The notes under the pieces: generated by a model
Database searches by the model: none
The model's input: only the letters and a program-made list of their open reading frames with translations
What the model was told of the DNA's origin: nothing
Source of the DNA: Lentisphaeria bacterium
Lineage (GTDB): Bacteria > Verrucomicrobiota > Lentisphaeria > Victivallales > UBA1829
NCBI GenBank assembly: GCA_017503375.1
Contig: JAFVTF010000067.1
Location: 4,042-68,041 of the forward strand
Direction of reading: 5' to 3'
Length of the DNA stretch: 64,000 nucleotides
Part shown: piece by piece, positions 14,812 through 60,493 of the stretch
Numbering within the stretch: the stretch's first letter is position 1
Layout: every line of letters starts with the position of its first letter
Program-made: the position numbers and the translations under genes

Positions 14812-14814
14812 GAA

Positions 14815-14851
14815 TAAAAAAGGGATATCTCAGATTTTTTCTCAGATATCC
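14815..14851 (-). terminator. Rho-independent terminator ending the DUF4838 operon (locus 2)
   Basis: Minus strand: ggatatctgaga-aaaaa-tctgagatatcc stem (one mismatch) followed by cTTTTTT. Confidence 0.6.
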
Positions 14852-14908
14852 TATGCTTTTTGAGCTGCAGTTCCGGATCACGGAAAACTGCAGAAGTTTG
14901 AGCGGTAT

Positions 14909-17782: not shown

Positions 17783-17803
17783 CCTTGATTCCTCCTTTGT
17801 ATA

Positions 17804-18568
17804 TTATTCTGAATAAGTGAAAATCGGGGCAGATGGGGGTTGAAACGTTGTTGTATTGGCCCAATGGAATTCACCTCTGTGGCTGACTGTATTACCGGCA
17901 ACAGTCACGACATTATCAACACCCTGGTGGTGGGAATCCGGCTTATCTGTCAGACGTCTGGTATTATATTCTGCCAAACCATATATATTGGGATTTGATT
18001 GTGCTGCATAACTGTGAGTATCTGTCATAAAAATTATTTTTGAAGCTGGAACCTTTGATTTCCCAAGTTTATAAGGGGAATAGAATTTAGGAGGCGCCTG
18101 AAAATATCCCAGCAATTGGTTTACAGTGTAGCTTCTGTTGATAGTTTTTCCGCCTTCCTTCTGGAACTCATAATTATACGTTCCGTTGGCAACCATACCG
18201 ACACCCCGGGAACGGTCACCCGGACAATCGAAAATTTTGATGGAAACTCCTCCTCGTTTGATGTCGGTGTAACCGGCATAATAAATGGTATGGAAAGGCG
18301 AGAGTTTTGCATGGGTAGATTTATTGTATGCAATCGGGAAAAAATCATTCTGGTCACCGGCATAGGATGTAAAAACCTGATGCGCCTGTTTCAGATTGGA
18401 AATACAGGATGCACTGATTCCCTTTGCTCTGGATTTGTTCAGAGCCGGAAGCAGCATTCCCGCAAGAATTGCAATGATCGCAATAACCACGAGCAATTCG
18501 ATCAGCGTGAAGCACATGTGCTTCATGCCTGTACACAGGCATGAACCGTTGTTCTTTGACATTTTCAT
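17804..18568 (-). CDS. Prepilin-type N-terminal domain protein, H-X9-DG family variant (H-X9-AG)
   Basis: [30 protein letters not shown]-terminal [12 protein letters not shown]. The start is set at ATG 18568 (MKMSKNN...), preceded by AAAGGAAAC. The ORF-track start at 18613 is an upstream extension. Confidence 0.8.
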
Positions 18569-18720
18569 AATGTTTCCTTTCTTGTTTGTTATTATAAAAA
18601 CAGTATACGACACTGCATCAAAGATTCCGGAAATCTTTGAAATCGTTTCTCCGGTGATATTTTGAAAAACCCCGGTTATACTTTTTTTCTTTCAAAACGG
18701 AACGTTCAACGCTGTCAAAA

Positions 18721-28157: not shown

Positions 28158-29381
28158 TTACTTTTTGTTTCTGGTGATGTTTTCCGGAATCGAACGGGCT
28201 GTTATTTTTGCAAATTTAAAATCAACAGCCCCTTCACGGAAGAACGGTTTTAATTCTTCCGGTACAACATTAATTCCTTTGTTATGCATGATGTTGTTGG
28301 AAATCTGGAATCTGCAATTTTCCATTCCCCGCGGATTTTTCTTCATTTCAGCCGGGATATTCAAAGAAGGATCGCAAACGATCAGAGGGATCCCGCCGAT
28401 TGCATAACAATCCCGGATTGTCAGCTGCATAGGTATTGCAAAAAGACGGACCAGTGCACCGTTTTCCCGGACAACCTGACCGCATGCTGTAAGACAATTC
28501 CGGAGGACCACTCTTCCTCCGTCCGAATGCGGATGGATCGCAGCTGCCTTTGCATAATTGTAAACTGCCGGGATTCCGCCGCCTTCACCGCCGAAACGGA
28601 CACTATCCGCCTCAAAACGGTCGTAATTATCCACCCAGCGGGCATTGTGGTAATAATCCTGTCCCTTGGGCGGATTTGCGCTGGGGGTCAGACAGCAGAA
28701 TGAAAGCCTCATGGTTCCGTACCGGTTGATAAATGCAGCTCCATCGGTCATGTTCGGCTGTGTCTGATCAACCCAGCAGTTGCGGATCTCCATCAAATCT
28801 CCGAAATTTTGCACACAACGGAAATTCTTGGAGAAGAGACATCCCTCGATCAAAGACTGACAGGACAGGTGAGAGATTCCTCTGGGCGGTTCCAGTTTGA
28901 CTGCCATCTCTGAGGCATAAAGAAACTGACAATCCCGGATCGTGACCATAGTCTTATCCAGATTTCTGTTTGTTACCAGAACCTGAACTCCTCCACCGAG
29001 AAATACCAGCTTTTCAATCCGGTTTCTGTATGCATTGATCTGGAACATCAAGCCGTTTTCCGCACCTGCCCATTTGAGAACAGCGGTCGTGTTTGAACCG
29101 GACATATTCACGAAACCGGAGACATTGATCGTGGACGTGATTTTATAAACACCGTGAGGAAATACCACGGTTGGCCCGGAGCCGAAATAACTGGATGCCG
29201 GATATTTTCCATAAGACCTGAATCCTCTCACAGATTTTGCCGCCGCATCAAATGCCTTCTGGATTGCTTTCGTATCATCAACCTGTCCGTTTCCGACAGC
29301 TCCATATTTTTTTACGTTGAATCCTTCGCCAAAGGAACAGAGTGTGCAAAGACACAGCAGGGTTATAAAAATTCTTTTCAT
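28158..29381 (-). CDS. Secreted right-handed beta-helix protein (pectate-lyase-superfamily fold), unknown specificity
   Basis: Signal peptide. FNVKKYGAVGNGQVDDTKAIQKAFDAA opening typical of beta-helix glycan enzymes. Shares RFGGEGGG..AVYN.AK with its upstream paralog. Confidence 0.65.
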   Translation of the reverse strand: MKRIFITLLCLCTLCSFGEGFNVKKYGAVGNGQVDDTKAIQKAFDAAAKSVRGFRSYGKYPASSYFGSGPTVVFPHGVYKITSTINVSGFVNMSGSNTTAVLKWAGAENGLMFQINAYRNRIEKLVFLGGGVQVLVTNRNLDKTMVTIRDCQFLYASEMAVKLEPPRGISHLSCQSLIEGCLFSKNFRCVQNFGDLMEIRNCWVDQTQPNMTDGAAFINRYGTMRLSFCCLTPSANPPKGQDYYHNARWVDNYDRFEADSVRFGGEGGGIPAVYNYAKAAAIHPHSDGGRVVLRNCLTACGQVVRENGALVRLFAIPMQLTIRDCYAIGGIPLIVCDPSLNIPAEMKKNPRGMENCRFQISNNIMHNKGINVVPEELKPFFREGAVDFKFAKITARSIPENITRNKK

Positions 29382-29395
29382 ATTTTATTGTACCT

Positions 29396-31039
29396 TTATT
29401 TGGTAAAAAGCGGTTTTTTGTTCAAACCGAATTCATGGATTTCCAGGACACTTCCGGGTGCAGCAAGTTCATATCTGTGCGGAATCTTGCCCTTACGGGG
29501 ATGGTATTCCTGTCCAATGTAATAAATCCGGAATGTCAAAGTCCGTTTTCCTTTCAGAGCAGGAACAGCTTTGGCGACATTTACTTCCCGTTTTCCGATG
29601 GGAAGCTGGCGCACGAAAAATGTGTACAGCTTTCCGGTTGCTTCATCAACCATTTTAACTGCAAATTCGGCCGGCTGACTGGAACGTACATCCATCGTCA
29701 GATAAGGGGTTTTACTGAAATCAACTTCCACATGTTTGACTTCAACAAAGGGGGCATCTCCATTTTTTCCGGAAAGACGGCGCATCAAACAGACCGGATA
29801 ACTGTCTTTATGGAAGACTGCAAGGAGGTCTCTGTTGTAAATCGCAGAACCGTCCATGTAGTTATCAAAGGAAAGTTTTACACCTTTCATGGTCAGAATA
29901 TTGATTTCACTTTTCGGTTTGATGGAGGTGACTTTGTATTCTTTGATCTTCTTTTCCAGTTCTTTGCCTGCCAGATGACCTGCCGGCATGGGGAGAGGAT
30001 TTACCTTTGCTGTCTGCAGGTCTGCCGGAATGACGAAACCTTTGAATCCCACATTTCCGTGAGCATGGAAGTTAAAGACATTTTTTTCGCCGAAGAAATA
30101 GTTGTCCAGCTTGATTGCAGGATTCACAACCACGCCCTTGCTGAATGTGGAATGGCAGTTTTCGATTGCCACAAGGTTCGGAACTTCCACGCAGTAAACT
30201 GCACAGTTCTGCAATCCGCTTGTATGGGCATCCACTTCACATTCCCGAAGTACGACAGTATTGGGCAGAGTGGGCAGTTTGGAATATTTTGCGAAATTAT
30301 AAACAGCAGTAAAACCGCCGCCTTCACCGCCGAAACGGCAGTTCGTTGCTGTGAGCCGTCCGTAGTTGTCGATCCAGCGTTGGCTCTGTCCGTTGCAGAG
30401 GGGAACACCGAGAAGATTGTCAACGGTCATATAACCGTGACGGTTCACGATGACAGCACTGTTTTTCATATCCTTATTATTCATGATCCATACATCCCGG
30501 ATCACGGTCCAGTCGGAATCGCTGTCAATGGAACCGATACAATGAATGAATTCACTCTTTTCAATGGTAAAAAGTGTGCTTTGCGCGCCCTTGCGTGTCA
30601 TGAGAGCGGTTCCGGTACACCAGAAAAATTTACAGTTTTCCACAAAGAAAAGAGATTTATCCAGGTTGTCATTGACTGCGGCAATATGACCTTTCCCGCC
30701 TTTGAAGACCAAACCTTTCACGGAAGCGTGCCAGAAGTTGATATAATCAAAGGTCGTTGCCTCCGGGTCCTGCTGAACAATGACTGCATTGTTGCCCCGC
30801 AGAGAAACCCGGTCAACTTTCAAAGTTCCTTTCACCAGATAAACTCCGGAGGGGAAATAAACGGTTTGGGGATTGTATGGATCACGGATCTTTTTTGCCG
30901 CGGCTTTCAGCGCGGCAGCGATCGCTGCAGTATCATCTTTTTTACTGTCTCCGGCTGCCCCGAAATCTTTCACATTGATTTCTCCGGCAAACAGTATTGC
31001 AGCAAGTGCTGCAGCCAATACGGTTAACAACTTTTTCAT
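29396..31039 (-). CDS. Secreted right-handed beta-helix protein (paralog) with a C-terminal extension
   Basis: Signal peptide. INVKDFGAAGDSKKDDTAAIAAALKAAAK opening. RFGGEGGGFTAVYNFAKY motif. AAAGGA RBS. Confidence 0.65.
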   Translation of the reverse strand: MKKLLTVLAAALAAILFAGEINVKDFGAAGDSKKDDTAAIAAALKAAAKKIRDPYNPQTVYFPSGVYLVKGTLKVDRVSLRGNNAVIVQQDPEATTFDYINFWHASVKGLVFKGGKGHIAAVNDNLDKSLFFVENCKFFWCTGTALMTRKGAQSTLFTIEKSEFIHCIGSIDSDSDWTVIRDVWIMNNKDMKNSAVIVNRHGYMTVDNLLGVPLCNGQSQRWIDNYGRLTATNCRFGGEGGGFTAVYNFAKYSKLPTLPNTVVLRECEVDAHTSGLQNCAVYCVEVPNLVAIENCHSTFSKGVVVNPAIKLDNYFFGEKNVFNFHAHGNVGFKGFVIPADLQTAKVNPLPMPAGHLAGKELEKKIKEYKVTSIKPKSEINILTMKGVKLSFDNYMDGSAIYNRDLLAVFHKDSYPVCLMRRLSGKNGDAPFVEVKHVEVDFSKTPYLTMDVRSSQPAEFAVKMVDEATGKLYTFFVRQLPIGKREVNVAKAVPALKGKRTLTFRIYYIGQEYHPRKGKIPHRYELAAPGSVLEIHEFGLNKKPLFTK

Positions 31040-31070
31040 TCAAGATATCCTTTCAAATTGCTTTTGTATT

Positions 31071-31793
31071 TCAATATGGGCTGTCATAGGTTCCATCGGG
31101 CTGGGGGGCGGATTGCATTCCGTAGGTTCCGGAGCTTTTCAGGGGAATCTGGGAATATCTCAAAGATGCAACATGTCCATCATGGAATGCAAAATTTGCA
31201 CTTCTGTTGTGACGGAATTTCAAGTTCTGGTATTGTGCCTGACTGGGCGGTTCATGAACTCTGCCGATTCCGAATCCGGGGCCGAACTGCGTTTCAATGT
31301 CAGCAAGCTGTGCACGGGTGGATGTCGCTTTGATTTTTGTGATTTTTGCAAAAGTGACATGTTCCCAATATGTTGTTGTTGAATTTGGCCAGCCGCCATT
31401 GGTATTTGAGTTGATCCCGTAATCTGCAAAACAGCCGCTGACACCATTATTCCCACGGTATTTTTCAACCGGACAGCGCCATACAGCTTTCGGATTCCAG
31501 GCATCTCCGGCAAATAAGTCATATTTTTCCGTATGAAAAAAGGCTGTCCAATAGGAACCGCTCCCGGTTTTCCGGATGTGAGATGGCAACAGCATATCAT
31601 CATTTTCCTGTGTATAACGCATCAGAATATTGTTCACCTGACGGATATTGTTTTTACATTGAACCTCCAGAGCTCTTCCTCTGGCATTATTCAATGCCGG
31701 CAGCAGCATCCCGGCAAGAATTGCTATTATTGCAATTACAACCAGCAACTCTATCAGCGTGAAACTTTTTTGACTGAAACGATTTTTTTTCAT
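31071..31793 (-). CDS. Prepilin-type N-terminal domain protein of the H-X9-DG / DUF1559 family
   Basis: [33 protein letters not shown]-terminal [22 protein letters not shown]. Confidence 0.85.
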
Positions 31794-31918
31794 TTTTCTC
31801 TCCTGTTATTGTTATTATTCTGATGACATTTTTTGGGTCTGTTGACGGGTTCTGTTCTTTTTGAGCAGTCTCATGAGAATATCCTTTCTATGACCTGCGG
31901 CAAAAACACGATGATTTC

Positions 31919-31946
31919 TGATGACGGTTTGCTGAACCTGTCATCA
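31919..31946. promoter_or_regulatory. Inverted repeat TGATGAC-N14-GTCATCA between the regulator and the pilin-like gene (candidate operator)
   Basis: tgatgacgg...cctgtcatca. The 10-mer ttctgatgac recurs at 31818-31827 (about 25 nt upstream of the pilin-like ATG) and at 31916-31925. Confidence 0.4.
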
Positions 31947-31985
31947 TTGGCATTTTCAAGCTGCGGCGTATTTTCTTCATTTTTA

Positions 31986-33044
31986 TTAACTTTTCAAATA
32001 TGGTTTGATATAGACATTTTTACGAAGCTCAACAGGGGTGCGGACTTGTTCCAGTAATGCCCTAGCACATTCCTCCGGTGAAACAATGATGCTCGGGAAT
32101 GTAAAACCACCCAATCCCCGGCACCAATCTGTGTTCAAACAGCCAATATAGTGTTTCGGGATATATCCACATTCCTTTGCGATTGTCAGAACCAGATTCA
32201 GAGAACTGTCATTTCCTGTATAAATTCCATCCGGCTGACTTTTCGGATGGGAGAATATTTCGTATATTGCATCAGCCAGTTTTTTCTTTTTTGAATAGGA
32301 AATGTAAATATGCGAAGCGGGATCGAATCCATTTTCTTTCAAGACATCTGCGAATCCATCCATAATGAGTTTGCTCCGGTGATGGGAAAAATCCTCCGGA
32401 TCAAAACGCCGGAACATATCAGGTCCGTCACAATCAATCAGTAACGGACGCTTGCACCCCTTTTCAATCAAATAAGACGCTCCGATTCTGCCGATTTCAT
32501 AATAATCAATAAAAACCCCCGTTGCATTTTCCGGGATATCGTAATCAATGTAATCGAAGAAAACCGGATTCTTTTTCAGGAGCTTGTCGATCATTGGATA
32601 AGCTTTATAGATATATCCGTCAAGGATCATGTAATTTGTTTCCAGGGAAGAAAGAGTCGTGAGTCCGCGCCGGATATGTTTTCTCAGTTTCGGCTGGTCA
32701 AATCCCCAAACATCGACCGCTTGAATACACAATCCTGCCTCTGCAGTCATTCTTTGCAGATGAGCATAGACATCTTCGTGAAAATGCCCGCCGTAACGCA
32801 GGACGGCACCGATCAGTTTTGCTGGATTGTAGTTTCTGCTTATCATTGTGCCGAGCCGTTTTTTCCGCTCAATAACGCCTTCTGAAACCAAATGTTCCAA
32901 TGCGTGACGGACTGTTCCGCGGGCAACACCGAACTGGCTGGCAAGTTCAGTCTCTTTGGGTAATAATGAGTTATCCCACGTTCCGGACCGAATCCCATCC
33001 CGCAGGTATTCCAGTATTTTTTCTGATTTTTCGCCGCGTTCCAT
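31986..33044 (-). CDS. GntR-family regulator with a LacI/PBP1-type sugar-binding effector domain
   Basis: LPKETELASQFGVARGTVRHALEHLVSEGVIERKKRLGTMI HTH. The start is moved to ATG 33044, which has a CAGGAG RBS 9 nt upstream. Confidence 0.75.
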   Translation of the reverse strand: MERGEKSEKILEYLRDGIRSGTWDNSLLPKETELASQFGVARGTVRHALEHLVSEGVIERKKRLGTMISRNYNPAKLIGAVLRYGGHFHEDVYAHLQRMTAEAGLCIQAVDVWGFDQPKLRKHIRRGLTTLSSLETNYMILDGYIYKAYPMIDKLLKKNPVFFDYIDYDIPENATGVFIDYYEIGRIGASYLIEKGCKRPLLIDCDGPDMFRRFDPEDFSHHRSKLIMDGFADVLKENGFDPASHIYISYSKKKKLADAIYEIFSHPKSQPDGIYTGNDSSLNLVLTIAKECGYIPKHYIGCLNTDWCRGLGGFTFPSIIVSPEECARALLEQVRTPVELRKNVYIKPYLKS

Positions 33045-33079
33045 ACTGAAAAACTCCTGAAAATATTTCGTACAACACA

Positions 33080-33108
33080 ATTATAGCATACAGTTCAAAA
33101 AAAATCAA
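33080..33108 (-). promoter_or_regulatory. Sigma70-type promoter of the locus-3 regulator
   Basis: Minus strand reads TTGATT-17 nt-TATAAT. Confidence 0.55.
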
Positions 33109-52296: not shown

Positions 52297-52531
52297 GGAG
52301 GACTCCTTCGTTTTTTATATTATTTTTAATACGTTATTCTTCTTCCTTGAAGCATTACCTGTAAATCTATATTGAAAAGTGCGTTTTGTCAAATTGAAAA
52401 ACGTTTTTTTTTCATATTTTTTTACAGTTTTCTTCCCTTTTTGCCAGTTTATAACAGGTGGTAATATATCATACATCTTGTTAAATGTCAAAAAAAAAGA
52501 TGACGAAACTTCCTTTTTTTTGTAAAAATAC

Positions 52532-52569
52532 AGAAAAAATGCCGGTTCCAATGTTTGAAAACCGGCATT
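52532..52569 (-). terminator. Rho-independent terminator closing the locus-4 operon
   Basis: 10-bp stem aatgccggtt / aaccggcatt (52538-52569), followed on the minus strand by TTTTTT. Confidence 0.7.
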
Positions 52570-52586
52570 TTGTATGTTTTGTCGTT

Positions 52587-55500
52587 TTATCGCGTCCATT
52601 CCCGAACAGTTTTGGTTCCGGAGGCAAGTTCTTCCGCTTCCAGTTTCCATTTTCCGTTCGGCTCATTCTGACCGGGAACATATACAAATTCCGCAGAACC
52701 GTTTTTGGCAGAGATGAACTGTTCCATTTTCTGTCCGTTCGGCATCGTCAGCAGAACACGGATCGGCTGGATTCCTTTCAGCTGTTTCTGTTTTCCATTC
52801 AGAACAGAAATCTTGAAGACAGCTTTTTTACCTGCCTGGAATGTTGGAATGTTTTCAACTTTCACTGCACCGACAGCTTCAGGGTAGACAATCAGAAGTT
52901 TTCCTTCCACGGGTTTGAAGTCAAGAGAAACCTTTCCGTTTTTCAACTCAAGTTTCTTCTTTGCCGGGAATTCATAGACAGCTCCATTTGTTTTAAGAGA
53001 AACATCCGCTTTCAGCGGCAGACCTGCATCGTAAACAGATTTATATTTTTTACCGAAGTAATCTCCGAATGTCCGTTTGTCATTCATCAGGAATACATAT
53101 TTGCAGTCGCCGGATTGAAGAGTCCGGATGTACAGTTCTGTGGATTCTGTATCGGCAAATGTGGAACCTGCCTGTTTGAATTTCCGCAGAGCTTTTGCAT
53201 AGTTCTGCTGTTCTGCATACATTACATCGGCAGTAAATCCCTTTTTATGCTTGACACTCCAATAAGTCGTGTCGGTGATTTTCTCGGTTTCGATGGGGAA
53301 CTTGACCGCTTTCGGGAACAGTTTTGCCCAGGGGGAATCCGGTTCCGTCAGGATCTTTCCGCCTTTATCAGCAAATGTTTTGAGTTTATCAAAGACATCC
53401 TGCGGCAGATGACTTGTACGGTAAAGCAGGATCTGGTCATAGTTAGCCAGTTCTCCTTTCCGGATGGTTTCTTCTGTGATGATCGCTGTCGGAATATTTG
53501 CTTTCCAGAAGAGATTCAAAATCGTATTCGCAGATGAATTTCCATAACCGCCCCAGTAGGATCTGTTGAAGATCTGGGAACCGAAAGAAAGCATCAGAGC
53601 TGTTTTGGGCTGTTCTCTTTCAAGATGGCGTGTTGCACTCCAGAGAGGTTTGACAAATTTCTTTGCAAAATCACTGACCGTCTGTCTGATGTGCTTTTCC
53701 CGGAATTCCGGTTTTGAAGTCGGCAGCAGGAAATTCAAATCGTAAATTTCGATCATTTCCGGTTTTGCTGCAAAGCCGAGATGAAGTGCTGTCAGATAAA
53801 TATTTGCAGGCTGAACACCTGCCCAGCGTCCTTTGGCAGGACCGATCTTATAACTGTAAAGCCAGAGACTGGGGTCAAGCTGGAATTTTTCCGGACGGCC
53901 GCCGGCACGGCAGGCGGAAAGCATGCTTTCCACAGCCATAAATGTTTCTCCGGCATCCGGATGACAATAGAACCATGTTCCGGCAAAATCCATTCCTTCC
54001 ATACGGGAGGAAAGAGGCACATTGCGGTACGGGTCATGATAGACTTGAATATCGGGACGTTCTTTTTTGATGATTTTTGCGACCTGAGCGCGGATGAGGT
54101 TATCTCCGGCACCGCGGTCCCAGAACCATGACATGAAACGGTAGTATTTGTTGTCCGTCGGGAAAACTGCGGGGGTGGCTTTTTTCACACTCTGCGGGAT
54201 TCTGACAACGCGGCCTGCGGTATTGTCGATTTCCATATTGGCAGTTTCAGAGATCGGCGGTTCAAAGCCCAGTTCTTTTCTGGCTCTGTCAATATCTTCT
54301 TTTGCGTATCCCTGTTCCAGAAAGTTTTCAATTTCAGAGTCCAGAAGAATACGGTTGATTGCAGGATAATCTTTGAGGAATTTTGCAATTTTTTCCATGC
54401 CGGAACAGATGTATTTGATGGTTTTTTCATTCCGTGCATTCAGCCGAATGCTGCGGGTTCCGTCTTTGCGGACAACGCACATATCGTTTCCGCCTGCGGG
54501 AACAGCGGAGAGAAGTGCAATCTGAATCCCGATCGACATATTGTTCAGCATGGCGTAGTCTGTCCGGGAGGCAATCATTTTTTTGCGGTACTGAACATCA
54601 TCTTTCGGGGTAAGATTCAGGTTGATGCCGTTGAAACCGTTTGCATTCATGACAGCAAGATCGCCGCCTGTCCAGCAGTAGAAACGGTAAAGATCTTTCT
54701 GCGGGCGTCTCACAACGGTGATATTCATTTCAGCAGACAGCTTTCCGTCGGTGACTTTGACTGTGTTTTTTCCGTAATTCAGGTCAGAAGCTTTGACGGA
54801 AATTGCCTGTTTGACTGTTCCTGTTGCGGGAACTGTTGAAACCGAACGGGATTCTTTTTTCTTCTGATACACCACTTGCATTTTTCCGGGTTTCATCGCA
54901 TCGGGTGTCCGGTTGATGAATTCAGCGGTCATAGCGATGGTTTCATCATCATAAAAAACGGTACGGCAGGTATCTGTGCTCAAACGGATTTCCTGTTTCG
55001 GGAGTGCCACAGGTTTTTTCTCAACGGCATATCCGGAATAGCTCTTGACAGAAACTTCTGCAAACTGAGCTTTCCGTTCGTGTACGCCGATTGCAACAGT
55101 TCCTTTCTTGAAGGTATCATCCAATGTCTGCAAAAGTTCAATGCTGTTGAGACGGACGTGGATCATTCCTTCATGTCTGCCGATGGAGATTGTCAGCGGG
55201 GCTGTTCTGCTTCCGGATGTCGGAATCTGAGTATCAACAGATGTTCTGGAAGCAAGCAGAGAAGCCTTTCCTTTTTCCACTTTGTAAAGATTCAGTTCAC
55301 GCTGGGTGTTGTTTCCATCCAGAACAAGACGGTAACAGTTGTTATTATCCTGACGGCAAAATTCCAGAATGATTTTTCCCATATTGTCGACAGTAATGAC
55401 ACGTGCGGTCAGAACGAAACTTTCGGGCATGATTTTGTCATTGACTGCCAGCGCATTAACGTCGATATGATCACTAAATTCTCTGTATCCGAATTTATCT

Positions 55501-56087
55501 GAATACCATTTCCCGCTGACAGGTTTGAACGGGATATTTTTGGAGGGCGCAACAAAATGAAGGTGAGTTGTTTCAGTTCCTGCGGAGGTGAATTTTTCCG
55601 GACGGACAACTTTTTCAAGAATTTTAACGTTTGTGACTTTTCCGGGGAAAATAAATCTGTTTCCGGGATATTTTCCGATCTGAAGTGAGTGCTGATTGAC
55701 GAGCGGCATCGTGATGTTTTCTTTTTCGCCGATCTTGGTTCCATTCAGATAAATTTCTCCTTTTCCGTTTTCAAAACAGAGGGTGATCCTGCTTGTTTTG
55801 AAAAGTTCCAGTTCCACGGGAGCGGAAATTCCTTTGCCGCGGTTGACCCGGAAGTTCAAATGAGATTTGGCTCCGAATCTTCCTCTGGAATAGTCCAGAG
55901 ACCAGGAGTGTTGAGCTGAATCATATCCTTTGGTCAGAATTTGAGTTCTGTGTGCGGCGGGAAATTCTCCCATGGGGAAAACATCCGCCTGAATGGTCAT
56001 TCCTTTGTTCTGTGCTACCGCTGAAAGGGATAATAATCCGATTCCGCAAAGCAGCAGACGTTTCATTGTTTTGTGAAGGTGGTTCAT
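52587..56087 (-). CDS. 1166-aa secreted multidomain protein (LamG/concanavalin-like N-terminal modules plus a putative glycan-enzyme core)
   Basis: Signal peptide MKRLLLCGIGLLSLSAVAQ. LamG-like segment GEIYLNGTKIGEKEN...IGKYPGNRFIFPGKVTNVKILEK. The rest was not confidently assigned. AGGAG RBS. Confidence 0.55.
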   Translation of the reverse strand: MNHLHKTMKRLLLCGIGLLSLSAVAQNKGMTIQADVFPMGEFPAAHRTQILTKGYDSAQHSWSLDYSRGRFGAKSHLNFRVNRGKGISAPVELELFKTSRITLCFENGKGEIYLNGTKIGEKENITMPLVNQHSLQIGKYPGNRFIFPGKVTNVKILEKVVRPEKFTSAGTETTHLHFVAPSKNIPFKPVSGKWYSDKFGYREFSDHIDVNALAVNDKIMPESFVLTARVITVDNMGKIILEFCRQDNNNCYRLVLDGNNTQRELNLYKVEKGKASLLASRTSVDTQIPTSGSRTAPLTISIGRHEGMIHVRLNSIELLQTLDDTFKKGTVAIGVHERKAQFAEVSVKSYSGYAVEKKPVALPKQEIRLSTDTCRTVFYDDETIAMTAEFINRTPDAMKPGKMQVVYQKKKESRSVSTVPATGTVKQAISVKASDLNYGKNTVKVTDGKLSAEMNITVVRRPQKDLYRFYCWTGGDLAVMNANGFNGINLNLTPKDDVQYRKKMIASRTDYAMLNNMSIGIQIALLSAVPAGGNDMCVVRKDGTRSIRLNARNEKTIKYICSGMEKIAKFLKDYPAINRILLDSEIENFLEQGYAKEDIDRARKELGFEPPISETANMEIDNTAGRVVRIPQSVKKATPAVFPTDNKYYRFMSWFWDRGAGDNLIRAQVAKIIKKERPDIQVYHDPYRNVPLSSRMEGMDFAGTWFYCHPDAGETFMAVESMLSACRAGGRPEKFQLDPSLWLYSYKIGPAKGRWAGVQPANIYLTALHLGFAAKPEMIEIYDLNFLLPTSKPEFREKHIRQTVSDFAKKFVKPLWSATRHLEREQPKTALMLSFGSQIFNRSYWGGYGNSSANTILNLFWKANIPTAIITEETIRKGELANYDQILLYRTSHLPQDVFDKLKTFADKGGKILTEPDSPWAKLFPKAVKFPIETEKITDTTYWSVKHKKGFTADVMYAEQQNYAKALRKFKQAGSTFADTESTELYIRTLQSGDCKYVFLMNDKRTFGDYFGKKYKSVYDAGLPLKADVSLKTNGAVYEFPAKKKLELKNGKVSLDFKPVEGKLLIVYPEAVGAVKVENIPTFQAGKKAVFKISVLNGKQKQLKGIQPIRVLLTMPNGQKMEQFISAKNGSAEFVYVPGQNEPNGKWKLEAEELASGTKTVREWTR

Positions 56088-56107
56088 ATTTGTGTATCTC
56101 CTGTATT

Positions 56108-56857
56108 TTAGTTGCTCCCGGGGTTTCCGAAATATCTGTTTCCATCAATAAACCACATGGGACGGTTCAGTCTGAGAGGCCCTGTTGTGAATTTTGTGAT
56201 GTCGACATGCCCATCAGCACGTCCTGTCACATTATTGAAGTTATGTCTCATTTTAACATCTATCGGAACCGGGAGTTTATCTGAATCGTATCCGCTGTAG
56301 TAGGGATCTGTTCCACTGACAGAAAAGGTTGTGCCGTCGTTCCATTCCATCATATAGACCAGAACTGACGGCTTCAGAATATTGGTTCTTTTCCGGAGTT
56401 TTCCCGCATTGCTTCCGGCGGAGTCCACTGAAAGAAAACAACTTCCGTTTGTACGGTAACTCAAAGCGAATCCATAATGTCCGTACGGTTCCTTTTTCAT
56501 GAATAAATGCGGGTCGGAAGGACAACTGAAGAGGTTATTTTCTTTCACTGCTGAATTTGTCTTTTTGTAGTAGAGATTTGCAGCGTGCATCCAGTACGGT
56601 GTTGAATAAAACTTGTTCTGATAATTTGCATGAGAGCCGCCGGGGGCGATAAAATCATCATAATCATCACTGTAAAAGTTCAGATAAGTCAGGAGGGACT
56701 TCTCGTTATTGACGCACTGCGTTCTTTTTGCAGAACCTCGGGCGTTGTTCAATGCGGGCAATAACATTCCGGCAAGGATTGCGATAATTGCGATCACAAC
56801 GAGCAGTTCAATCAGTGTGAAACTCATGTGTTTTTCTCTGTTTCGGAAATTTTTCAT
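56108..56857 (-). CDS. Prepilin-type N-terminal domain protein of the H-X9-DG / DUF1559 family
   Basis: [44 protein letters not shown]-terminal [12 protein letters not shown]. The start is set at ATG 56857 by identity with the paralog at 58928, including the AAAGGA RBS. Confidence 0.85.
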
Positions 56858-56876
56858 TTTTTTCCTTTCTGTTATT

Positions 56877-58214
56877 TTATTTTTCAATCATTTTACCATT
56901 CAGATTCAGCGGTTTGCCGAATTTACAGTTTTCCATTTCTGTATCTTTGTCGTTGAAAGTTACAACTCCATATTTCCAGCCGGGTTCCTCATTCCATTTA
57001 ATTCTGATCCGGTTGAAACGGACATCCTTTGCATGGGCAATGTAAAACGCCCCTTCCGATTGTGTCTTGCCCCATTCTCCGTAAGGACCTTCAATATTAT
57101 CGGAATGTGGAGTGTGCGTTCCGATACATTCCAGTTCCATATCTTCAAAGGAAATATTTTCAATTCCGGTTCCGGCATTTCCGCTGACGGATATATTTTT
57201 ACTGAAGGTTCCCCGGATATGACGGAAACTGATATTTTTGATCATTTTTGCTGCAGGTTCCGGTCTGGCGCCTTTAACATTGCTCAGAACAAGAATCGGG
57301 TTTTCCACGTTCATTTGCAGATTGGAAAATGAGATGTTTTCGATCTGAACACCAGTATCCGGTTTGGCAAGATAATTGGAAATGATGGCAATGGCGGTTC
57401 TTGTATTGTAGAAGACGATATTGGAGAACGTGGCATTGCGGACAATACCATTTCCCACTCCTATGCGGATTGCGTTGCAGTTCGTATGAAGAATACAGTT
57501 TGTGACAGTCACCAATTCACAGGGCTTTTTGTTTTTGATTCTGGCGTCGGAACCGCGCAACGTGATGCAGTCATCACCGGCATCAATGATGCAGTCGGAA
57601 ATCGTCACCCGGCGGCAGCAGTCAATGTCGATTCCATCCCCGTTGAAAGTCCGCTGATCGTTCAGAACCCTCAAACCGTGGATCTGTACATCATCGCTGC
57701 CATGCACAAAGCAAGTCCAGTACGGAGCATTGTAAAGTTTCAGATCAAGAATCTTGACATTTCTGCATTCCTCGAAAAAGATCATCTGACCGGGACGCCA
57801 GATGCGCATGAGTTCTTCCGGTGAGAATTTTCCATCGATCCTGTCGCAGGTCGGCTGGGTTTTATCCCCGTAAAACGCCTGACGGTTTCCGTCAATGATT
57901 CCGGTTCCGGAAAGGGTGATATTTTCCTGTTCCACAGCAACGATAAAATGAGCTCCGCTGACAAATTCCTGGGAAAATACCAGATTTTGCGGACAGAAAT
58001 CATCTTTATTGTAGTCTTCTTTATCAGGGCTTGCTTTCAAGGTTGCGCCGGTTTCCAGATGCAACCCTCCGTTTGATTTCAGATAAAGGGTTCCGGAAAG
58101 GTAAGTTCCGGGCGGAAAGTAAACCATGCCGCCCGCATCAATAGCTTTCTGGATAGCTGCTGTATCTTTTGTGATTCCATCACCGACAGCACCGTAATCT
58201 TTTACGTTCCGCAT
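56877..58214 (-). CDS. GH28-family glycoside hydrolase (polygalacturonase-like), no signal peptide
   Basis: [26 protein letters not shown] opening, [18 protein letters not shown], and a beta-helix repeat pattern. Confidence 0.75.
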
Positions 58215-58232
58215 AAGTAAATAACCTCAAAA

Positions 58233-58928
58233 TTAATTATACCGGGAGCCAGTCCTAGTCCATTTATAAAGATCATTCATGCAAGCATCTGTCGGCAGTT
58301 TCATGATTTCCACATGTCCATCAGCATGACCGGTATTTGCTTTCATATTATGTCTTGCCATCAGCCAGTCGATACGTTCCTGACTTGCGAGATTTCCCCA
58401 TCCGGAATAATAAGTTGCAGTACCGCTAGGACTGAAATTTGTTGATTTTTCCATATCCCACATCCAAACGTGTTTGGACGGCTGTCTGATGGAGACCCGT
58501 TTATGCCGGAGTGTTGCGTTGTCGTAGGGGAAGCAGTTTGTATTTACCCAGTAACTGAGTCTGTAACCATAGAATCCGCTGGTCCAGAGATGTTTGTCGG
58601 AAGGACAGCTGAAAAGACTGTTTTTACCCGTAGCTTTCGGGGTCTTGTAGTAGTTGTGATGAATGACCCCCATCCAGGTATCATTCGTTGCTGTAGGAGT
58701 TTTCATTCTGCTGAGCGGCATGAAACCGTCACTGTCATCACTGTATGCATTGATGAACAAAAGCAGCTGTTTGATATTTCCCTTGCAGGAAGCCATTCTG
58801 CTGTTTTCCCGTGCGTTGTTCAGAGCAGGAAGCAGCATCCCGGCGAGAATTGCGATAATTGCGATCACAACGAGCAGTTCAATCAGTGTGAAACTCATGT
58901 GTTTTTCTCTGTTTCGGAAATTTTTCAT
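58233..58928 (-). CDS. Prepilin-type N-terminal domain protein of the H-X9-DG / DUF1559 family
   Basis: [44 protein letters not shown]-terminal [12 protein letters not shown]. Confidence 0.85.
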
Positions 58929-58948
58929 TTTTTTTCCTTTCTTTATGG

Positions 58949-60409
58949 TTATACAACAATTTTCTCTTGAATTTCGATTCTCTGTTTCAGACTTTCAAAC
59001 TTGTTTTTCATTGCTTTTATAAACTCATCAACGGTCATGGAACCGTACAGCAATTCTTTCAGTTCCTCTCTCAGATAGAAAATGATGAGATCTGAAAAGC
59101 AATGACTGTTTTTATCCTGATCTTTCCGCGGAGCAAGGTTTTGAAGAAATTCAGCTGTCATTTGTTTTGTCTGATGATATTTATTTTTCATGTGTTCAAA
59201 AAACAGCTGTTTATGGACAGGGAAGTTTCCTTTGAATTCAGCACAAGGTTTCTGTACTTCATACGAGAGCAGGTAATGCAGGAAATCTGCTGCGGCGTGA
59301 ACATTGAGACAATTTTTGGAAATTGCAATTTTCAGGAATTCCACAGACAGATTTTTTTGGCTTGGAAACGTGAGAAAACCACATCGGAAATTCGGCGGGT
59401 CAAGCACTTGAAGATGGGAAAGCTGTCCCAGGAGAAAGAGCCGCTGACCTTGCAGAAAGTTTTCCAGATTGTCAAAGGTATATTTCTGGTCTGTAACAAA
59501 AAGCTTGTCAATATTATTTCCGGCTGACCTTCCAGCTTGAACAAGTTTTTCCAGAATTGGACGGAATCTGTTCATATCATTGATATTTTCCAGATCCGTC
59601 TGTAAATAGAGATAATCCCAGATCCTGACACCGGAGAGACATCCATCGGGCAGTTTTTCAGCTGAATCCATAAGAAGATCAAGCAGTTTTCCGCCGCTTA
59701 CTTTTTCAGGGATTCCGGAAATTCCGATTTTTTCTGCCAGTTCCTGATTCCAGAGAATAATGGGTGCAGAAAGATAGAACGGAACAGAATAGGTTAGATC
59801 AATATTCAAATCTTTCAGTATGTAAGAATCTGAATTTTCAACGGATTTCAGCCTTGCCGGGATTTTTATGAAGTCTTTTTCGTAATTCAGTCTGAACAAA
59901 TGCGACAACATCATGATATCAATTTTTTGGGATTGAATGATCTCTTTGATGTTATTTTGCCGGGAAAGATTTTCCATCCATACAGGTTCGACAGTAACAG
60001 ATCCATTCCTGTTGTTGTAATTATCAATCACTGTTTCCCAGAATTTTCTTTGAATGGGAAGATCCTCATAGATCAGAAAACGCAAAGGCGGCTGATGCAT
60101 GATTTCATGCTGCATACCGGGGATGAACGGGTTTGGCTGAATGGAACGGCATTGTTTCTTCGGAGCAACCATTGTACCCAGTCTTCCGTGGCGGATGATA
60201 GCTCCACTGACATAGAACTTATTCAGCGCACTCCGGACGGTGACACGGCTGATCTGCAATGATTCAGAAATCATGCGTTCCGGGGGGAGAGGAGTTCCTG
60301 CCTCCAGATTTTCGATCAGTTTTTCCAGCTGGTTTTCCAATTGACTTTTCAGAGACTTAGGAGAAGTCCTGTCAATCATCAGTACCTGCAGCATTTCATC
60401 GGTCGTCAT
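58949..60409 (-). CDS. One-component regulator: GntR-type winged HTH fused to a solute-binding-protein-like domain (paralog of 18721-20103)
   Basis: [43 protein letters not shown]. The C-terminal ~400 aa have the same SBP-like layout (…[25 protein letters not shown]…). No signal peptide. Confidence 0.7.
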
Positions 60410-60437
60410 AATTCTGAAACTTTATTTTGTTTGTTTT

Positions 60438-60455
60438 AATACCAATAATACCAAT
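60438..60455 (-). promoter_or_regulatory. Tandem 9-bp repeat ATTGGTATT x2 in the regulator leader (candidate operator)
   Basis: The + strand reads aataccaat twice in tandem, located between the -10 box and ATG 60409. Confidence 0.4.
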
Positions 60456-60464
60456 TGTTACCCT

Positions 60465-60493
60465 ATTATACCACAAATAAATCAGATTGTCAA
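60465..60493 (-). promoter_or_regulatory. Sigma70-type promoter of the locus-4 operon
   Basis: Minus strand reads TTGACA-17 nt-TATAAT. Confidence 0.6.

What the first reader, a model, noticed from the sequence alone, without database searches (positions are those of the whole stretch)
52587..60493. Locus 4: operon of GntR-SBP sensor, H-X9-DG prepilin-like, GH28, a second H-X9-DG prepilin-like and a 1166-aa secreted LamG protein, with no transporter
Five genes are packed with 18-20 nt gaps on the minus strand. They sit between a consensus promoter (TTGACA-17-TATAAT, 60465-60493) and a clean terminator (52532-52569). Pilin-like genes alternate with glycan enzymes.

The only predicted membrane-anchored products are the two pilin-like proteins. 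There is no ABC, MFS or TonB-dependent component.

The same regulator/pilin-like/enzyme order recurs three more times in this window. That argues the H-X9-DG protein is an integral functional part of a PUL-like module rather than a bystander. Candidate roles are glycan capture or presentation on a pseudopilus, or a membrane-tethered binding protein. I recall, but have not verified, that DUF1559 carries the Pfam short name SBP_bac_10. To my knowledge the role of this family is unknown.
Basis: partly seen in the sequence, partly recalled or inferred. Interest (0 to 1): 0.8.

Follow-up and report, generated by a model that had tools for sequence, protein, structure and literature searches.

The report
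Pilin-like genes paired with exported glycan enzymes
A gut Lentisphaeria bacterium has a five-gene, sugar-sensing pectin-type operon in which each large exported enzyme is preceded by its own pilin-like protein of unknown function; this pairing recurs across the phylum and hints at a way of handling polysaccharides that does not use the Bacteroides-type SusC/SusD system.

Summary
Five minus-strand genes with 18-20 nt gaps lie between a perfect TTGACA-17-TATAAT promoter and a strong terminator. The same operon occurs in at least 24 metagenome contigs.

- GH28 has no signal peptide, so it is probably cytoplasmic.
- The 1166-aa "LamG protein" is an exported, distant GH42-like enzyme.
- The alternation of pilin and enzyme genes comes from a species-specific insertion of GH28 plus pilin B. 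Orthologous loci read regulator, pilin-A orthologue, 1162-aa enzyme.

The pilin-like proteins have a type IV pilin fold, not a solute-binding-protein fold. Their 28-residue N-terminal helix is invariant although synonymous sites are heavily diverged. Their heads are variable and rich in Trp and Tyr.

In 41 Lentisphaerota loci the gene just after the pilin gene usually encodes a large exported protein (31/37, median 849 aa). The gene just before it is often a GntR, LacI or AraC sugar regulator. This pattern is absent from the Verrucomicrobiota loci. The bystander explanation is therefore rejected within Lentisphaerota.

The role itself is not resolved. I favour an operon-specific pseudopilin that partners the exported enzyme (export or tethering). 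Glycan capture is a close rival.

One oddity: the residue before the cleavage site is almost never Gly in this phylum.

The parts
60465..60493 (-). Sigma-70-type promoter TTGACA-17(TG)-TATAAT of the operon
   Evidence: 12/12 match and the only perfect one in 10.5 kb. Sequence read.
60437..60454 (-). Direct repeat TTGGTATTA x2 just downstream of the -10 box. Candidate operator of the GntR regulator (inferred only).
   Evidence: Read directly. Not tested further.
58949..60409 (-). One-component regulator: GntR winged helix (aa 21-81) plus MalE-like SBP_bac_8 sensor domain (aa 127-401). It has no signal peptide and is the first gene of the operon.
   Evidence: Pfam 38.4 and 34.1 bits, both above cutoff. 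PDB hits cover only the GntR domain. The L001 orthologous locus has the same regulator type upstream of its pilin gene.
58233..58928 (-). Pilin-like protein A (231 aa). Leader [12 protein letters not shown], mature N-terminus FTLIELLVV..., H193-X9-D203-G204-H205.
   Evidence: N_methyl and PF07596 above cutoff. AF2 model pLDDT 86 with a 50-residue helix and a small beta-sheet head. Foldseek matches only the helix of type IV pilins. Orthologues (56% and 47% identity) directly precede the 1162/1163-aa enzyme in L001 and L003.
56877..58214 (-). GH28 pectin-type glycosidase, 445 aa, no signal peptide (probably cytoplasmic)
   Evidence: PF00295 83.8 bits. Partial matches to polygalacturonase and rhamnogalacturonidase models, all far below their equivalog cutoffs. 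The ORF cannot be extended upstream. Orthologues at 74, 65 and 59% identity have no pilin neighbour.
56108..56857 (-). Pilin-like protein B (249 aa). Its leader and first 40 residues are identical to those of A. Head about 33% identical to A. H-X9-DG motif present.
   Evidence: N_methyl 22.5 bits. Motif found. The 137-nt repeat 56739-56875 / 58810-58946 is 88% identical.
52587..56087 (-). Exported 1166-aa multidomain enzyme: signal peptide, two LamG/ConA-like domains, an Ig-like domain, a GH42-like TIM barrel (about 469-825, invariant E585), an alpha/beta domain (829-970), a beta-sandwich and an MG2-like domain.
   Evidence: AF2 pLDDT 93.8. Family profile against PDB hits GH42 beta-galactosidases at E=4.6e-16. 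Foldseek top hits are GH42 5xb7 and 3tts with TMt 0.52-0.58. 599 family representatives.
52526..52571 (-). Intrinsic terminator (14-bp stem, 5 GC pairs, T run)
28158..33080 (-). Locus 3, same module: GntR plus Peripla_BP regulator, pilin-like (31071-31793), then two exported pectate-lyase-fold proteins
12912..20103 (-). Locus 2, same module: GntR plus SBP-like regulator, pilin-like (17804-18613), exported DUF4838 protein, 614-aa lipoprotein
6358..12890 (.). Locus 1, variant module: divergent AraC (+), cytoplasmic GH95/65-like, pilin-like (9315-10106), exported DUF4838 protein

Best explanation
Locus 4 is one autoregulated, substrate-inducible operon for a pectin or rhamnogalacturonan-type glycan. 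It belongs to an uncultured Lentisphaeria bacterium, probably from a gut.

**Proposed working of the operon.** Every step below is inferred from domain content and gene order; none was tested here.
1. The cytoplasmic GntR-SBP protein senses an imported oligosaccharide and controls the single promoter.
2. The exported GH42-like 1166-aa enzyme acts on the polymer outside the cytoplasm.
3. The products enter through a transporter encoded elsewhere.
4. The cytoplasmic GH28 finishes their breakdown.

**Proposed role of the two H-X9-DG proteins.** They are type IV pilin-fold subunits. Their invariant N-terminal helix (F1, E5 and 21 hydrophobic residues) is taken to fit them to one shared type IV filament machine of the T2SS type. 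Their variable, aromatic-rich head supplies the specificity.

The working unit is a two-gene cassette: a pilin-like gene followed by a large exported protein. I think the pilin-like protein is most likely an operon-specific pseudopilin that partners the exported enzyme encoded just downstream. It would escort that enzyme through the secretin or hold it at the cell envelope.

**Shown.**
- The operon anatomy.
- The pilin fold.
- The selection on the helix.
- The adjacency statistics.
- The pairing conserved across different operon contexts.

**Inferred.**
- Processing and assembly of the pilin-like proteins.
- The partnership with the enzyme.
- The identity of the substrate.
For: **Operon structure.**
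- Gene order, gaps, promoter and terminator.
- The same operon in at least 24 contigs.

**Pilin fold and helix.**
- AF2 model has a 50-residue alpha-1 helix and a four-stranded head; its only PDB similarity is to type IV pilins.
- The 28-codon helix is identical in protein among the five window paralogues. They differ at 10-18 of those codons synonymously and at 0-2 non-synonymously. This indicates strong purifying selection, as expected for a shared assembly interface.

**Cassette pattern in Lentisphaerota.**
- The +1 gene is signal-peptide-like in 31/37 cases with median length 849 aa, against 9/18 at +2, 2/8 at +3 and 8/34 at -1.
- The enrichment is significant (p=7e-8).
- In the window the pilin gene lies just before the exported enzyme even when a cytoplasmic enzyme comes first (locus 1). 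The same holds in L003, where RhaA precedes pilin and the 1163-aa enzyme.
- The pilin-A orthologue stays with the 1162/1163-aa enzyme under two different regulators.
- Orthologues of the cytoplasmic GH28 never have a pilin neighbour.

**Link to a secretion machine.**
- Two close homologues of pilin A lie next to two secretin genes.
- The best N-terminal NCBIfam similarity is to GspG.

**Published proteomics.** In Verruconatronum alginivorum a PulG-like pseudopilin with 67 paralogues lies inside an operon induced by alginate. The authors suggest T2SS export (PMC13274419).
Against: - No known T2SS needs a pseudopilin dedicated to each cargo.
- Loci 2 and 3 have one pilin gene for two exported proteins.
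- Tandem arrays of pilin-like genes exist without enzymes (L013, L090).
- One 1167-aa orthologue (L002) has no adjacent pilin gene.
- The -1 residue is not Gly (S in both A and B). By the textbook rule, prepilin peptidase should then not cleave (PMC4471445).
- No filament machine, ATPase or peptidase gene is visible in the window.
- The signal-peptide calls come from my own crude heuristic. It gave a false positive for carB.
- The 80 loci were picked by similarity to pilin A, so the sample is not random.
- Nothing here tests binding between the pilin head and the enzyme.
Confidence: 0.4

Rival explanations
1. Glycan-receptor pilin. Each operon supplies a substrate-specific lectin-like subunit to a shared, possibly retractile, pilus or pseudopilus. 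That filament captures the polysaccharide and may pull it through a secretin into the periplasm, as DNA-uptake pili do with a receptor minor pilin.
For: - The heads are hypervariable and unusually rich in Trp and Tyr: 9.2% against 3.7% in control proteins (p=1e-49). Carbohydrate-binding surfaces are often like this.
- The operons hold no SusC/SusD, TonB-dependent or ABC genes.
- There are PVC precedents. Planctomycetes take up dextran through crateriform structures with fibres (PMC5394234). A type IV-like pilus locus is tied to glycan attachment and use in Akkermansiaceae (PMC13174399).
- One pilin gene per operon with several enzymes (loci 2 and 3) fits one glycan, one receptor.
Against: - No CBM or lectin fold was detected.
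- The partner enzymes already carry LamG, CBM9 and F5/8 binding modules.
- This model does not predict strict adjacency to the exported protein at +1 rather than anywhere in the operon.
- The same doubts apply about cleavage without Gly at -1.
Confidence: 0.3
2. Not a filament subunit. The protein is not cleaved (no Gly at -1) and stays anchored in the inner membrane with a periplasmic head. There it would act as a tethered binding protein or chaperone for the exported enzyme or for oligosaccharides. It might feed an unlinked transporter, in the manner of the archaeal bindosome proteins that carry pilin-type signals.
For: - The -1 residue is S, S, S, P and C in the window, and Gly in only 2 of the 113 closest homologues.
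- Gly or Ala at -1 occurs in 6/62 Lentisphaerota genes against 47/48 in the other loci.
- The review PMC4471445 calls the Gly 'absolutely critical'.
- The Pfam short name is SBP_bac_10.
- Bindosome precedent: PMC3047682.
- A cytoplasmic GH28 and a cytoplasmic sensor imply oligosaccharide import, yet the operon has no transporter.
Against: - The head is a pilin fold, not a periplasmic-binding-protein fold.
- F+1 is found in 117/118 genes and E+5 is invariant, and the helix is under extreme purifying selection. That is hard to explain for a simple membrane anchor.
- Leaders are hypervariable and are swapped between strains of one species, while the mature protein is conserved. This suits a leader that is removed.
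- Two homologues lie beside secretin genes.
Confidence: 0.15
3. Bystander. The pilin-like genes are simply very numerous, and they fall next to CAZyme genes by chance in a CAZyme-rich genome.
For: - Copy number is very high: 5 in 64 kb here, and more than 7900 database homologues scored.
- The sampled Verrucomicrobiota relatives show no association (1/44).
- GH28 orthologues occur without a pilin gene.
Against: - In Lentisphaerota the neighbourhood depends on both position and direction: regulators at -1, large exported proteins at +1, then decay at +2 and +3.
- Gaps are 9-44 nt in many loci.
- The pilin-A orthologue and the enzyme travel together between operon contexts.
- A pseudopilin lies inside an operon induced by alginate in a published proteome (PMC13274419).
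Confidence: 0.05

Closest known systems
Type II secretion pseudopilins (GspG/PulG family) and T2SS-dependent secretion of pectinases and cellulases (for example the Dickeya Out system; Cytophaga hutchinsonii T2SS, cited in PMC13274419)
   Same: - Class III-type N-terminus with F1 and E5.
- A long alpha-1 helix and a small beta-sheet head.
- The best N-terminal HMM similarity is to GspG.
- Some family members lie next to secretin genes.
- The partners are Sec-exported glycan enzymes.
   Different: - Scores are far below the GspG cutoff (30.8 against 88.85 bits).
- The head is larger and carries the H-X9-DG hairpin.
- Judging from 5 copies in this 64-kb window, copy number per genome is probably very high, with copies placed inside catabolic operons rather than in the gsp cluster.
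- The -1 residue is not Gly.
- Cargo-specific pseudopilins are not known in any T2SS.
H-X9-DG / DUF1559 (TIGR04294, PF07596 SBP_bac_10) paralogous families of Planctomycetota, Verrucomicrobiota and Lentisphaerota
   Same: - The same N-terminal helix and the same C-terminal H-X9-DG motif.
- Large paralogous expansion. Planctopirus has 68 paralogues of unknown function, two of them essential (PMC10632474).
   Different: - The window proteins are short, divergent members. PF07596 matches only profile positions 2-53 of 268 in A and does not match B. TIGR04294 is below its cutoff.
- The cassette with an exported enzyme and the Gly-less leader were seen only in Lentisphaerota here.
PulG-like pseudopilin pgaptmp_000050 in the alginate operon of Verruconatronum alginivorum (PMC13274419)
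   Same: A multi-copy (67) pseudopilin gene lies inside a polysaccharide-degradation operon that is up-regulated on its substrate. Its authors propose a link to T2SS export.
   Different: - It comes from a different phylum (Opitutales).
- I could not check that it belongs to the H-X9-DG family.
- That operon contains a uronate transporter.
- No systematic pairing with exported enzymes was described.
Bindosome of Sulfolobus (sugar-binding proteins with class III signal peptides, Bas system; PMC3047682)
   Same: Proteins that carry pilin-type signals and serve sugar acquisition rather than motility or adhesion. Many substrate-specific proteins would share one assembly machine.
   Different: Bindosome proteins are true ABC-type solute-binding proteins encoded with ABC transporters. 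Here the head is a small pilin fold and no ABC genes are linked.
Bacteroidota polysaccharide utilisation loci (SusC/SusD PULs)
   Same: Substrate-induced clusters that combine a sensor or regulator, exported and intracellular glycoside hydrolases, and a non-catalytic envelope protein.
   Different: There is no SusC/SusD pair, no TonB-dependent transporter and no hybrid two-component sensor. The non-catalytic component is a pilin-like protein.
Type IV-like pilus loci for glycan use in PVC bacteria (Akkermansia MUL2, PMC13174399; fibres of planctomycete crateriform structures, PMC5394234)
   Same: PVC bacteria without SusC/SusD in which pilus-like structures are implicated in glycan attachment or uptake.
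   Different: Those are single, dedicated loci (PilM, one archaeal-like pilin). They are not hundreds of operon-embedded paralogues, and no H-X9-DG proteins are described there.
GH42 beta-galactosidases and alpha-L-arabinopyranosidases (comparison for the 1166-aa protein)
   Same: TIM barrel, then an alpha/beta 'trimerisation-type' domain, then a beta-sandwich, in the same order. E585 is invariant at the end of strand beta-4.
   Different: - About 11% sequence identity, and no Pfam GH42 hit.
- It is exported and carries two LamG domains, an Ig-like domain and an MG2-like domain.
- No conserved nucleophile was identified.

Membership tests
Type IV pilin / pseudopilin (class III signal peptide) | Hydrophilic leader that ends in Gly at -1 | tested here: not met
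   The -1 residue is S in A and B, and S, P and C in the three other window paralogues. It is Gly in 2 of the 113 closest homologues. The rule is stated in PMC4471445.
Type IV pilin / pseudopilin (class III signal peptide) | F/M at +1, Glu at +5, and about 21 hydrophobic residues; PF07963 or TIGR02532 above cutoff | tested here: met
   [22 protein letters not shown] in all five. PF07963 scores 22.6 and 22.5 against a cutoff of 21.2. TIGR02532 scores 21.9 and 21.7 against 16.3.
Type IV pilin / pseudopilin (class III signal peptide) | 'Lollipop' fold: an alpha-1 helix of about 50 residues packed on an antiparallel beta-sheet head | tested here: met
   AF2 model of pilin A: pLDDT 86, helix 15-65, strands 127-129, 154-157, 196-201 and 206-210. 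Foldseek matches pilin FimA 3sok with probability 0.96, over the helix only.
Type IV pilin / pseudopilin (class III signal peptide) | Cleavage and N-methylation by a prepilin peptidase, and assembly by an ATPase/platform machine | not testable with these tools
   No machine genes lie in the window. The only hint is that two homologues sit beside secretin genes in L085.
H-X9-DG domain (TIGR04294) | C-terminal H-X9-DG motif and an HMM score above cutoff | tested here: inconclusive
   The motif is present in A (H193...D203-G204) and in B. It is nearly invariant in the alignment. The HMM scores 16.6 against 19 in A and is not reported for B.
DUF1559 (PF07596, SBP_bac_10) | Pfam model above the gathering score | tested here: inconclusive
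   A scores 27.2 against 23.3, but the match covers only profile positions 2-53 of 268. B has no hit at E<=0.01.
T2SS major pseudopilin GspG (TIGR01710 / PF08334) | Equivalog score; homology of the head domain to T2SSG | tested here: not met
   30.8 and 28.7 bits against a cutoff of 88.85, over the N-terminus only. hhalign of the family against a Lentisphaeria T2SSG-domain protein gives E=0.075 and probability below 1%.
Bacterial extracellular solute-binding protein (periplasmic-binding-protein fold) | Two-lobed alpha/beta PBP fold in the globular part | tested here: not met
   The model has one small beta-sheet head of about 165 residues. No SBP appears among the Foldseek PDB hits. The PDB sequence search returns only pilins.
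Bacteroidota-type PUL | Adjacent SusC-like TonB-dependent transporter and SusD-like lipoprotein | tested here: not met
   No such domains occur in any of the four loci.
GH28 | PF00295 above cutoff with a right-handed beta-helix | tested here: met
   83.8 against 22.9 bits, and Pect-lyase_RHGA_epim 63.2 bits. All NCBIfam equivalogs are far below their cutoffs, so the specificity is open.
GH42 (for the 1166-aa protein) | Sequence-family membership and two catalytic Glu residues on strands beta-4 and beta-7 | tested here: inconclusive
   No Pfam GH42 hit. The profile against PDB gives E=4.6e-16 and the fold search gives TMt 0.52-0.58. E585 is invariant, but no conserved nucleophile was found. I treat it as GH42-like, not as a member.
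GntR-family regulator | N-terminal GntR winged helix above cutoff, plus an effector domain | tested here: met
   PF00392 scores 38.4 against 27. The effector domain is SBP_bac_8 at 34.1 against 27, which is none of the effector types I recall for the classical GntR subfamilies.

The most novel reading that the evidence does not exclude
Lentisphaerota may run polysaccharide utilisation through one type IV filament or T2SS-like machine that is reprogrammed by hundreds of operon-encoded, substrate-induced pseudopilins. Each would have an invariant assembly helix, a Gly-less leader that needs a prepilin peptidase of unusual specificity, and a variable head. The head would couple one exported CAZyme, or its glycan, to the machine. 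This would be a modular alternative to the SusC/SusD paradigm that does not depend on it.
Probability: 0.3. Interest if true: 0.85.

Novelty: new variant of a known kind. Interest (0 to 1): 0.62.

Why it matters
PVC bacteria (Lentisphaerota, Kiritimatiellota, Verrucomicrobiota, Planctomycetota) are major degraders of complex and sulfated glycans in guts and oceans, yet they lack the SusC/SusD system that explains glycan capture in Bacteroidota. Their largest paralogous family, DUF1559 / H-X9-DG, has no known function.

A reproducible cassette of regulator, pilin-like gene and large exported enzyme gives that family a concrete, testable role in the export, display or capture steps of glycan use. 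It also flags many large 'hypothetical' exported proteins as likely glycan-active partners, including a 599-representative GH42-like family.

The Gly-less leaders would, if they are cleaved, extend the known specificity of bacterial prepilin peptidases.

Tried and rejected
- **Solute-binding-protein fold for the pilin head.** Rejected. Foldseek and the PDB sequence search return only pilins, and only over the helix.
- **Faster protein evolution of the pilins between strains.** The raw counts suggested it. Most differences turned out to be swapped leader peptides. The mature proteins differ at only 6 and 3 residues, so there is no evidence of diversifying selection.
- **Gene conversion as the cause of the invariant helix.** Rejected. 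Paralogues differ at 10-18 of 28 codons synonymously. Only A and B share a recent 137-nt tract.
- **Co-phylogeny of pilin heads and downstream enzymes.** Only 6 enzyme-homologous pairs were available, and 3 of them come from the same family by design. The trend is positive (median 63 against 22 bits, p=5e-4), but the independent sample is too small.
- **1166-aa family among the 80 pilin-anchored loci.** None found. The partner proteins are extremely diverse.
- **Metagenome scan for close relatives of pilin B.** Nothing found.
- **Literature.** I found nothing that links H-X9-DG or DUF1559 to CAZyme operons. The one relevant paper is the Verruconatronum proteomics study.
- **Rfam and tRNA scans.** They add nothing to the locus; the only hit is an FMN riboswitch elsewhere in the window.

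Full report
**1. The observation**

| Coordinates | Length | Product |
|---|---|---|
| 58949-60409 | 486 aa | regulator |
| 58233-58928 | 231 aa | pilin-like A |
| 56877-58214 | 445 aa | GH28 |
| 56108-56857 | 249 aa from the ATG | pilin-like B |
| 52587-56087 | 1166 aa | exported enzyme |

- The gaps are 20, 18, 19 and 20 nt, and each holds an AGGA/GGAG-type ribosome-binding site.
- The promoter TTGACA-17-TATAAT (60493-60465) matches 12 of 12 positions and has a TG extension. It is the only perfect match in the 10.5 kb scanned.
- A 14-bp stem with a T run (52571-52536) follows the last stop codon by 16 nt.
- A second promoter-like site for the next gene lies beyond the terminator, so the unit is cleanly delimited.
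- The same five genes in the same order occur in at least 24 metagenome contigs of what is clearly the same species.
- In one NCBI MAG ('Lentisphaeria bacterium', tags IKB25_08580 and IKB25_08590) the GH28 and the 1166-aa protein are annotated 'hypothetical protein'.
- Transcription as a single unit is inferred. It was not shown.

**2. What the genes are**

*Regulator.* It has a GntR winged helix (38.4 bits) fused to a MalE-like SBP_bac_8 domain (34.1 bits) and no export signal. It is therefore a cytoplasmic one-component sensor.

*GH28.* The assignment is firm (83.8 bits). The ORF cannot be extended upstream and begins directly with the mature domain. It is therefore probably cytoplasmic. The NCBIfam polygalacturonase and rhamnogalacturonidase equivalogs all score far below their cutoffs. 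The substrate class is pectic, but the exact specificity is open.

*The 1166-aa protein.* It is more than a LamG protein.
- With 80 homologues, AlphaFold gives pLDDT 93.8.
- The model shows a signal peptide, two ConA/LamG-like sandwiches, an Ig-like domain, a TIM barrel (about 469-825), an alpha/beta domain (829-970), a beta-sandwich and an MG2-like domain.
- A profile of the family hits GH42 beta-galactosidases in the PDB at E=4.6e-16.
- The best Foldseek matches are GH42 enzymes (5xb7, 3tts; TMt 0.52-0.58; about 11% identity).
- E585, at the end of strand beta-4, is invariant. I could not identify a conserved nucleophile.
- The family has 599 representatives at 50% clustering.
- In a related genome its orthologue lies in an AraC-linked cluster with RhaA and a GH78 rhamnosidase gene nearby. 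Together with the GH28 here, this points to rhamnogalacturonan-type pectin. That is an inference.

**3. The pilin-like proteins**

*Sequence.*
- Both pass the N_methyl and TIGR02532 models.
- Both carry H-X9-DG.
- PF07596 does have the short name SBP_bac_10. It matches only A, and only at the start of the profile.

*Structure.* The AlphaFold model of A (pLDDT 86, pTM 0.82) has a 50-residue helix followed by a small four-stranded head. The H-X9-DG motif forms the last beta-hairpin. Foldseek and phmmer against the PDB return only type IV pilins, and only over the helix. No solute-binding protein appears.

*Alignment.* Among 115 family members the segment F13-L36 is essentially invariant, as are C48, Y62, C108-P109, Y126, S151, H193 and D203-G204-H205.

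*Selection on the helix.* The five window paralogues encode the same 28-residue helix. They use different codons at 10-18 of the 28 positions, with only 0-2 amino-acid changes. This is purifying selection on the peptide, not recent conversion. It is the pattern expected when many subunits must fit one assembly interface.

*Heads.* The heads are variable, about 30-35% identical. They contain 9.2% Trp plus Tyr, against 3.7% in control proteins from the same loci.

**4. Is the pilin gene part of the module?**

*Orthologous loci of the 1166-aa gene.*
- L001 reads GntR-SBP regulator, pilin, 1162-aa enzyme.
- L003 and L004 read AraC, RhaA, pilin, 1163-aa enzyme.
- In both, the pilin is most similar to window pilin A (56% and 47%), not to B.
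- A fourth context, L002, has no adjacent pilin gene.

*GH28 orthologues.* Those at 74, 65 and 59% identity never have a pilin neighbour.

*Consequence.* The ancestral unit is regulator, pilin A, exported enzyme. GH28 plus pilin B is a species-specific insertion. The 'alternation' is an accident of that insertion.

*Eighty GTDB loci.* I fetched them with the family alignment and called 114 pilin-like genes in them.
- Across all loci, 43% of the co-directional +1 genes are at least 700 aa long, against 6.6% of control genes (p=3e-11).
- 72% of +1 genes have a signal-peptide-like N-terminus, against 25% of controls.
- Pfam tallies of the +1 genes list LamG, DUF4838, CBM9, beta-helix, heparinase, PL8, GH78 and GH71, and many have no Pfam hit at all.
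- The -1 genes are GntR (11), LacI (6) or AraC (2) regulators in 19 of 56 cases, against 7 of 122 controls (p=3e-6).

*Split by phylum.* The effect belongs to Lentisphaerota.
- There, 22 of 61 pilin genes precede a protein of at least 500 aa with a signal-peptide-like N-terminus. Only 11 of 179 control genes are of that kind (p=7e-8).
- In the Verrucomicrobiota and other loci the figure is 1 of 44.

*Position dependence in Lentisphaerota.*

| Position relative to pilin gene | Signal-peptide-like | Median length |
|---|---|---|
| +1 | 31/37 | 849 aa |
| +2 | 9/18 | 456.5 aa |
| +3 | 2/8 | 459 aa |
| -1 | 8/34 | 368.5 aa |

*Caveats.* The signal-peptide test is my own crude heuristic. The gene calls are simple longest-ORF picks. 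The loci were chosen by similarity to pilin A.

**5. How it probably works**

The data support a two-gene cassette, pilin-like gene plus large exported protein, placed under a sugar-sensing regulator.

My preferred reading (about 0.4) is that the pilin-like protein is an operon-specific pseudopilin. Its invariant helix would enter a shared T2SS-type filament machine. Its head would partner the exported enzyme made from the next gene, for passage through the secretin or for retention at the envelope.

Points in favour:
- the strict +1 adjacency, even behind cytoplasmic enzymes (window locus 1, L003);
- the joint movement of pilin and enzyme between different operon contexts;
- the GspG-like N-terminus;
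- two close homologues next to tandem secretin genes;
- a published case in which a PulG-like pseudopilin with 67 paralogues lies inside an alginate-induced operon (PMC13274419).

The glycan-receptor pilin idea (about 0.3) explains three things better:
- the aromatic heads;
- one pilin gene serving several enzymes;
- the absence of any outer-membrane glycan importer.

It also has PVC precedents (PMC5394234; PMC13174399).

A non-filament, membrane-tethered role (about 0.15) is kept alive by the leader anomaly described in section 6. Pure chance is disfavoured (about 0.05).

Whichever is right, a cytoplasmic GH28 and a cytoplasmic sensor mean that oligosaccharides must be imported by a transporter encoded elsewhere. 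Some related loci do carry MFS or SSF genes next to the pilin gene.

**6. An unexpected feature**

Bacterial class III leaders are said to end 'invariably' in Gly, and that Gly is called 'absolutely critical' for cleavage (PMC4471445).
- Here the -1 residue is S, S, S, P and C in the five window proteins.
- It is Gly in only 2 of the 113 closest homologues.
- It is Gly or Ala in 6 of 62 Lentisphaerota genes, against 47 of 48 in the Verrucomicrobiota and other loci.
- F+1 and E+5 nevertheless stay invariant.
- Leaders are hypervariable. Between conspecific strains they are entirely replaced, while the mature proteins differ at 6 and 3 residues.

This suits a leader that is removed by a peptidase with unusual specificity. 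It could also mean there is no cleavage at all. I could not decide between the two.

**7. Comparison with what is known, and novelty**

- The protein families (PF07963, PF07596, TIGR04294, GH28, GntR) are known.
- The function of DUF1559 / H-X9-DG is not. Planctopirus has 68 paralogues of unknown function, two of them essential (PMC10632474).
- In the searchable literature I found no description of a regular pairing with exported glycan enzymes, and none of the Gly-less leaders.
- The locus is not a Bacteroidota-type PUL, because it has no SusC/SusD pair.
- It is not a bindosome, because the head is not a solute-binding protein.
- By score, the pilin-like proteins are not GspG.
- I rate the locus a new variant of a known kind: type IV filament subunits recruited, one per operon, into glycan-utilisation modules.
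- Interest is moderate to high. The pattern is robust in Lentisphaerota and it turns the function of a very large orphan family into a testable question. The mechanism is still inferred.

Noticed in passing
window 56858-56893, 58893-58928, 31764-31793, 10056-10106, 18512-18568 (leaders); loci L005-L084: [quoted passage not shown] In the Verrucomicrobiota and other relatives it is Gly or Ala in 47/48. F+1 and E+5 stay invariant. This contradicts the textbook rule for bacterial prepilins.
   Followed up: partly
window 56739-56875 and 58810-58946: A 137-nt direct repeat (88% identical) covers the ribosome-binding site, the leader and the first codons of pilin A and pilin B. It gives both the identical leader [13 protein letters not shown] conspecific strain (L094) has two different leaders (..MKLRS and METKRKC). 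This suggests a recent gene conversion between the two 5' ends in this strain.
   Followed up: partly
window 58949-60409 and 18721-20103: Two regulators fuse a GntR DNA-binding domain to a MalE-like extracellular-solute-binding-protein domain (SBP_bac_8) with no export signal. As far as I recall, none of the classical GntR subfamilies has this effector domain. It may define an oligosaccharide-sensing subfamily.
   Followed up: no
window 60437-60454: The direct repeat TTGGTATTA TTGGTATTA lies immediately downstream of the -10 box of the operon promoter. It is a candidate operator.
   Followed up: no
L085 1-5129: Two H-X9-DG pilin-like genes (37-39% identical to pilin A) are transcribed divergently from two tandem secretin-domain genes (548 and 491 aa). 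This is the only link to a filament or secretion machine that I saw.
   Followed up: partly
L013 (six copies), L090 622-3454 (four to five copies): Tandem arrays of H-X9-DG pilin-like genes occur with no enzyme genes between them. Not all family members sit in enzyme cassettes.
   Followed up: no
L040, L055, L063, L064, L080 (gene just downstream of the pilin-like gene): In the Verrucomicrobiota relatives the pilin-like gene is often followed by a lipoprotein of about 135-150 aa that looks helix-rich from its sequence, instead of a large enzyme. The L063 and L064 copies are 42% identical.
   Followed up: no
window 6358-9297 and 14909-17782: Two large exported DUF4838 proteins (979 and 957 aa) are the +1 partners of the pilin-like genes in loci 1 and 2. 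The first also has a weak GH67 C-terminal match. They are probably uncharacterised glycosidases.
   Followed up: no
L088 14504-15049: A 181-aa protein with a T2SSG (GspG head) domain has an ordinary N-terminal membrane anchor instead of a class III signal peptide.
   Followed up: no
window 48582-48727 (-): An FMN riboswitch (84 bits) lies upstream of ribBA, in a riboflavin-biosynthesis cluster that also contains nusB (about 41.6-48.5 kb). This is ordinary.
   Followed up: yes
window 20469-22052; 25424-27858; 39121-41514; 42623-45315: Other genes seen while annotating the window:
- An AAA-ATPase_like plus PD-(D/E)XK_9 protein, also present next to the orthologous operon in L001.
- An AraC regulator overlapping an ADP-ribosylglycohydrolase gene on the opposite strand.
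- A GH94 phosphorylase.
- Two adjacent exported proteins with C39-like peptidase domains.
   Followed up: no
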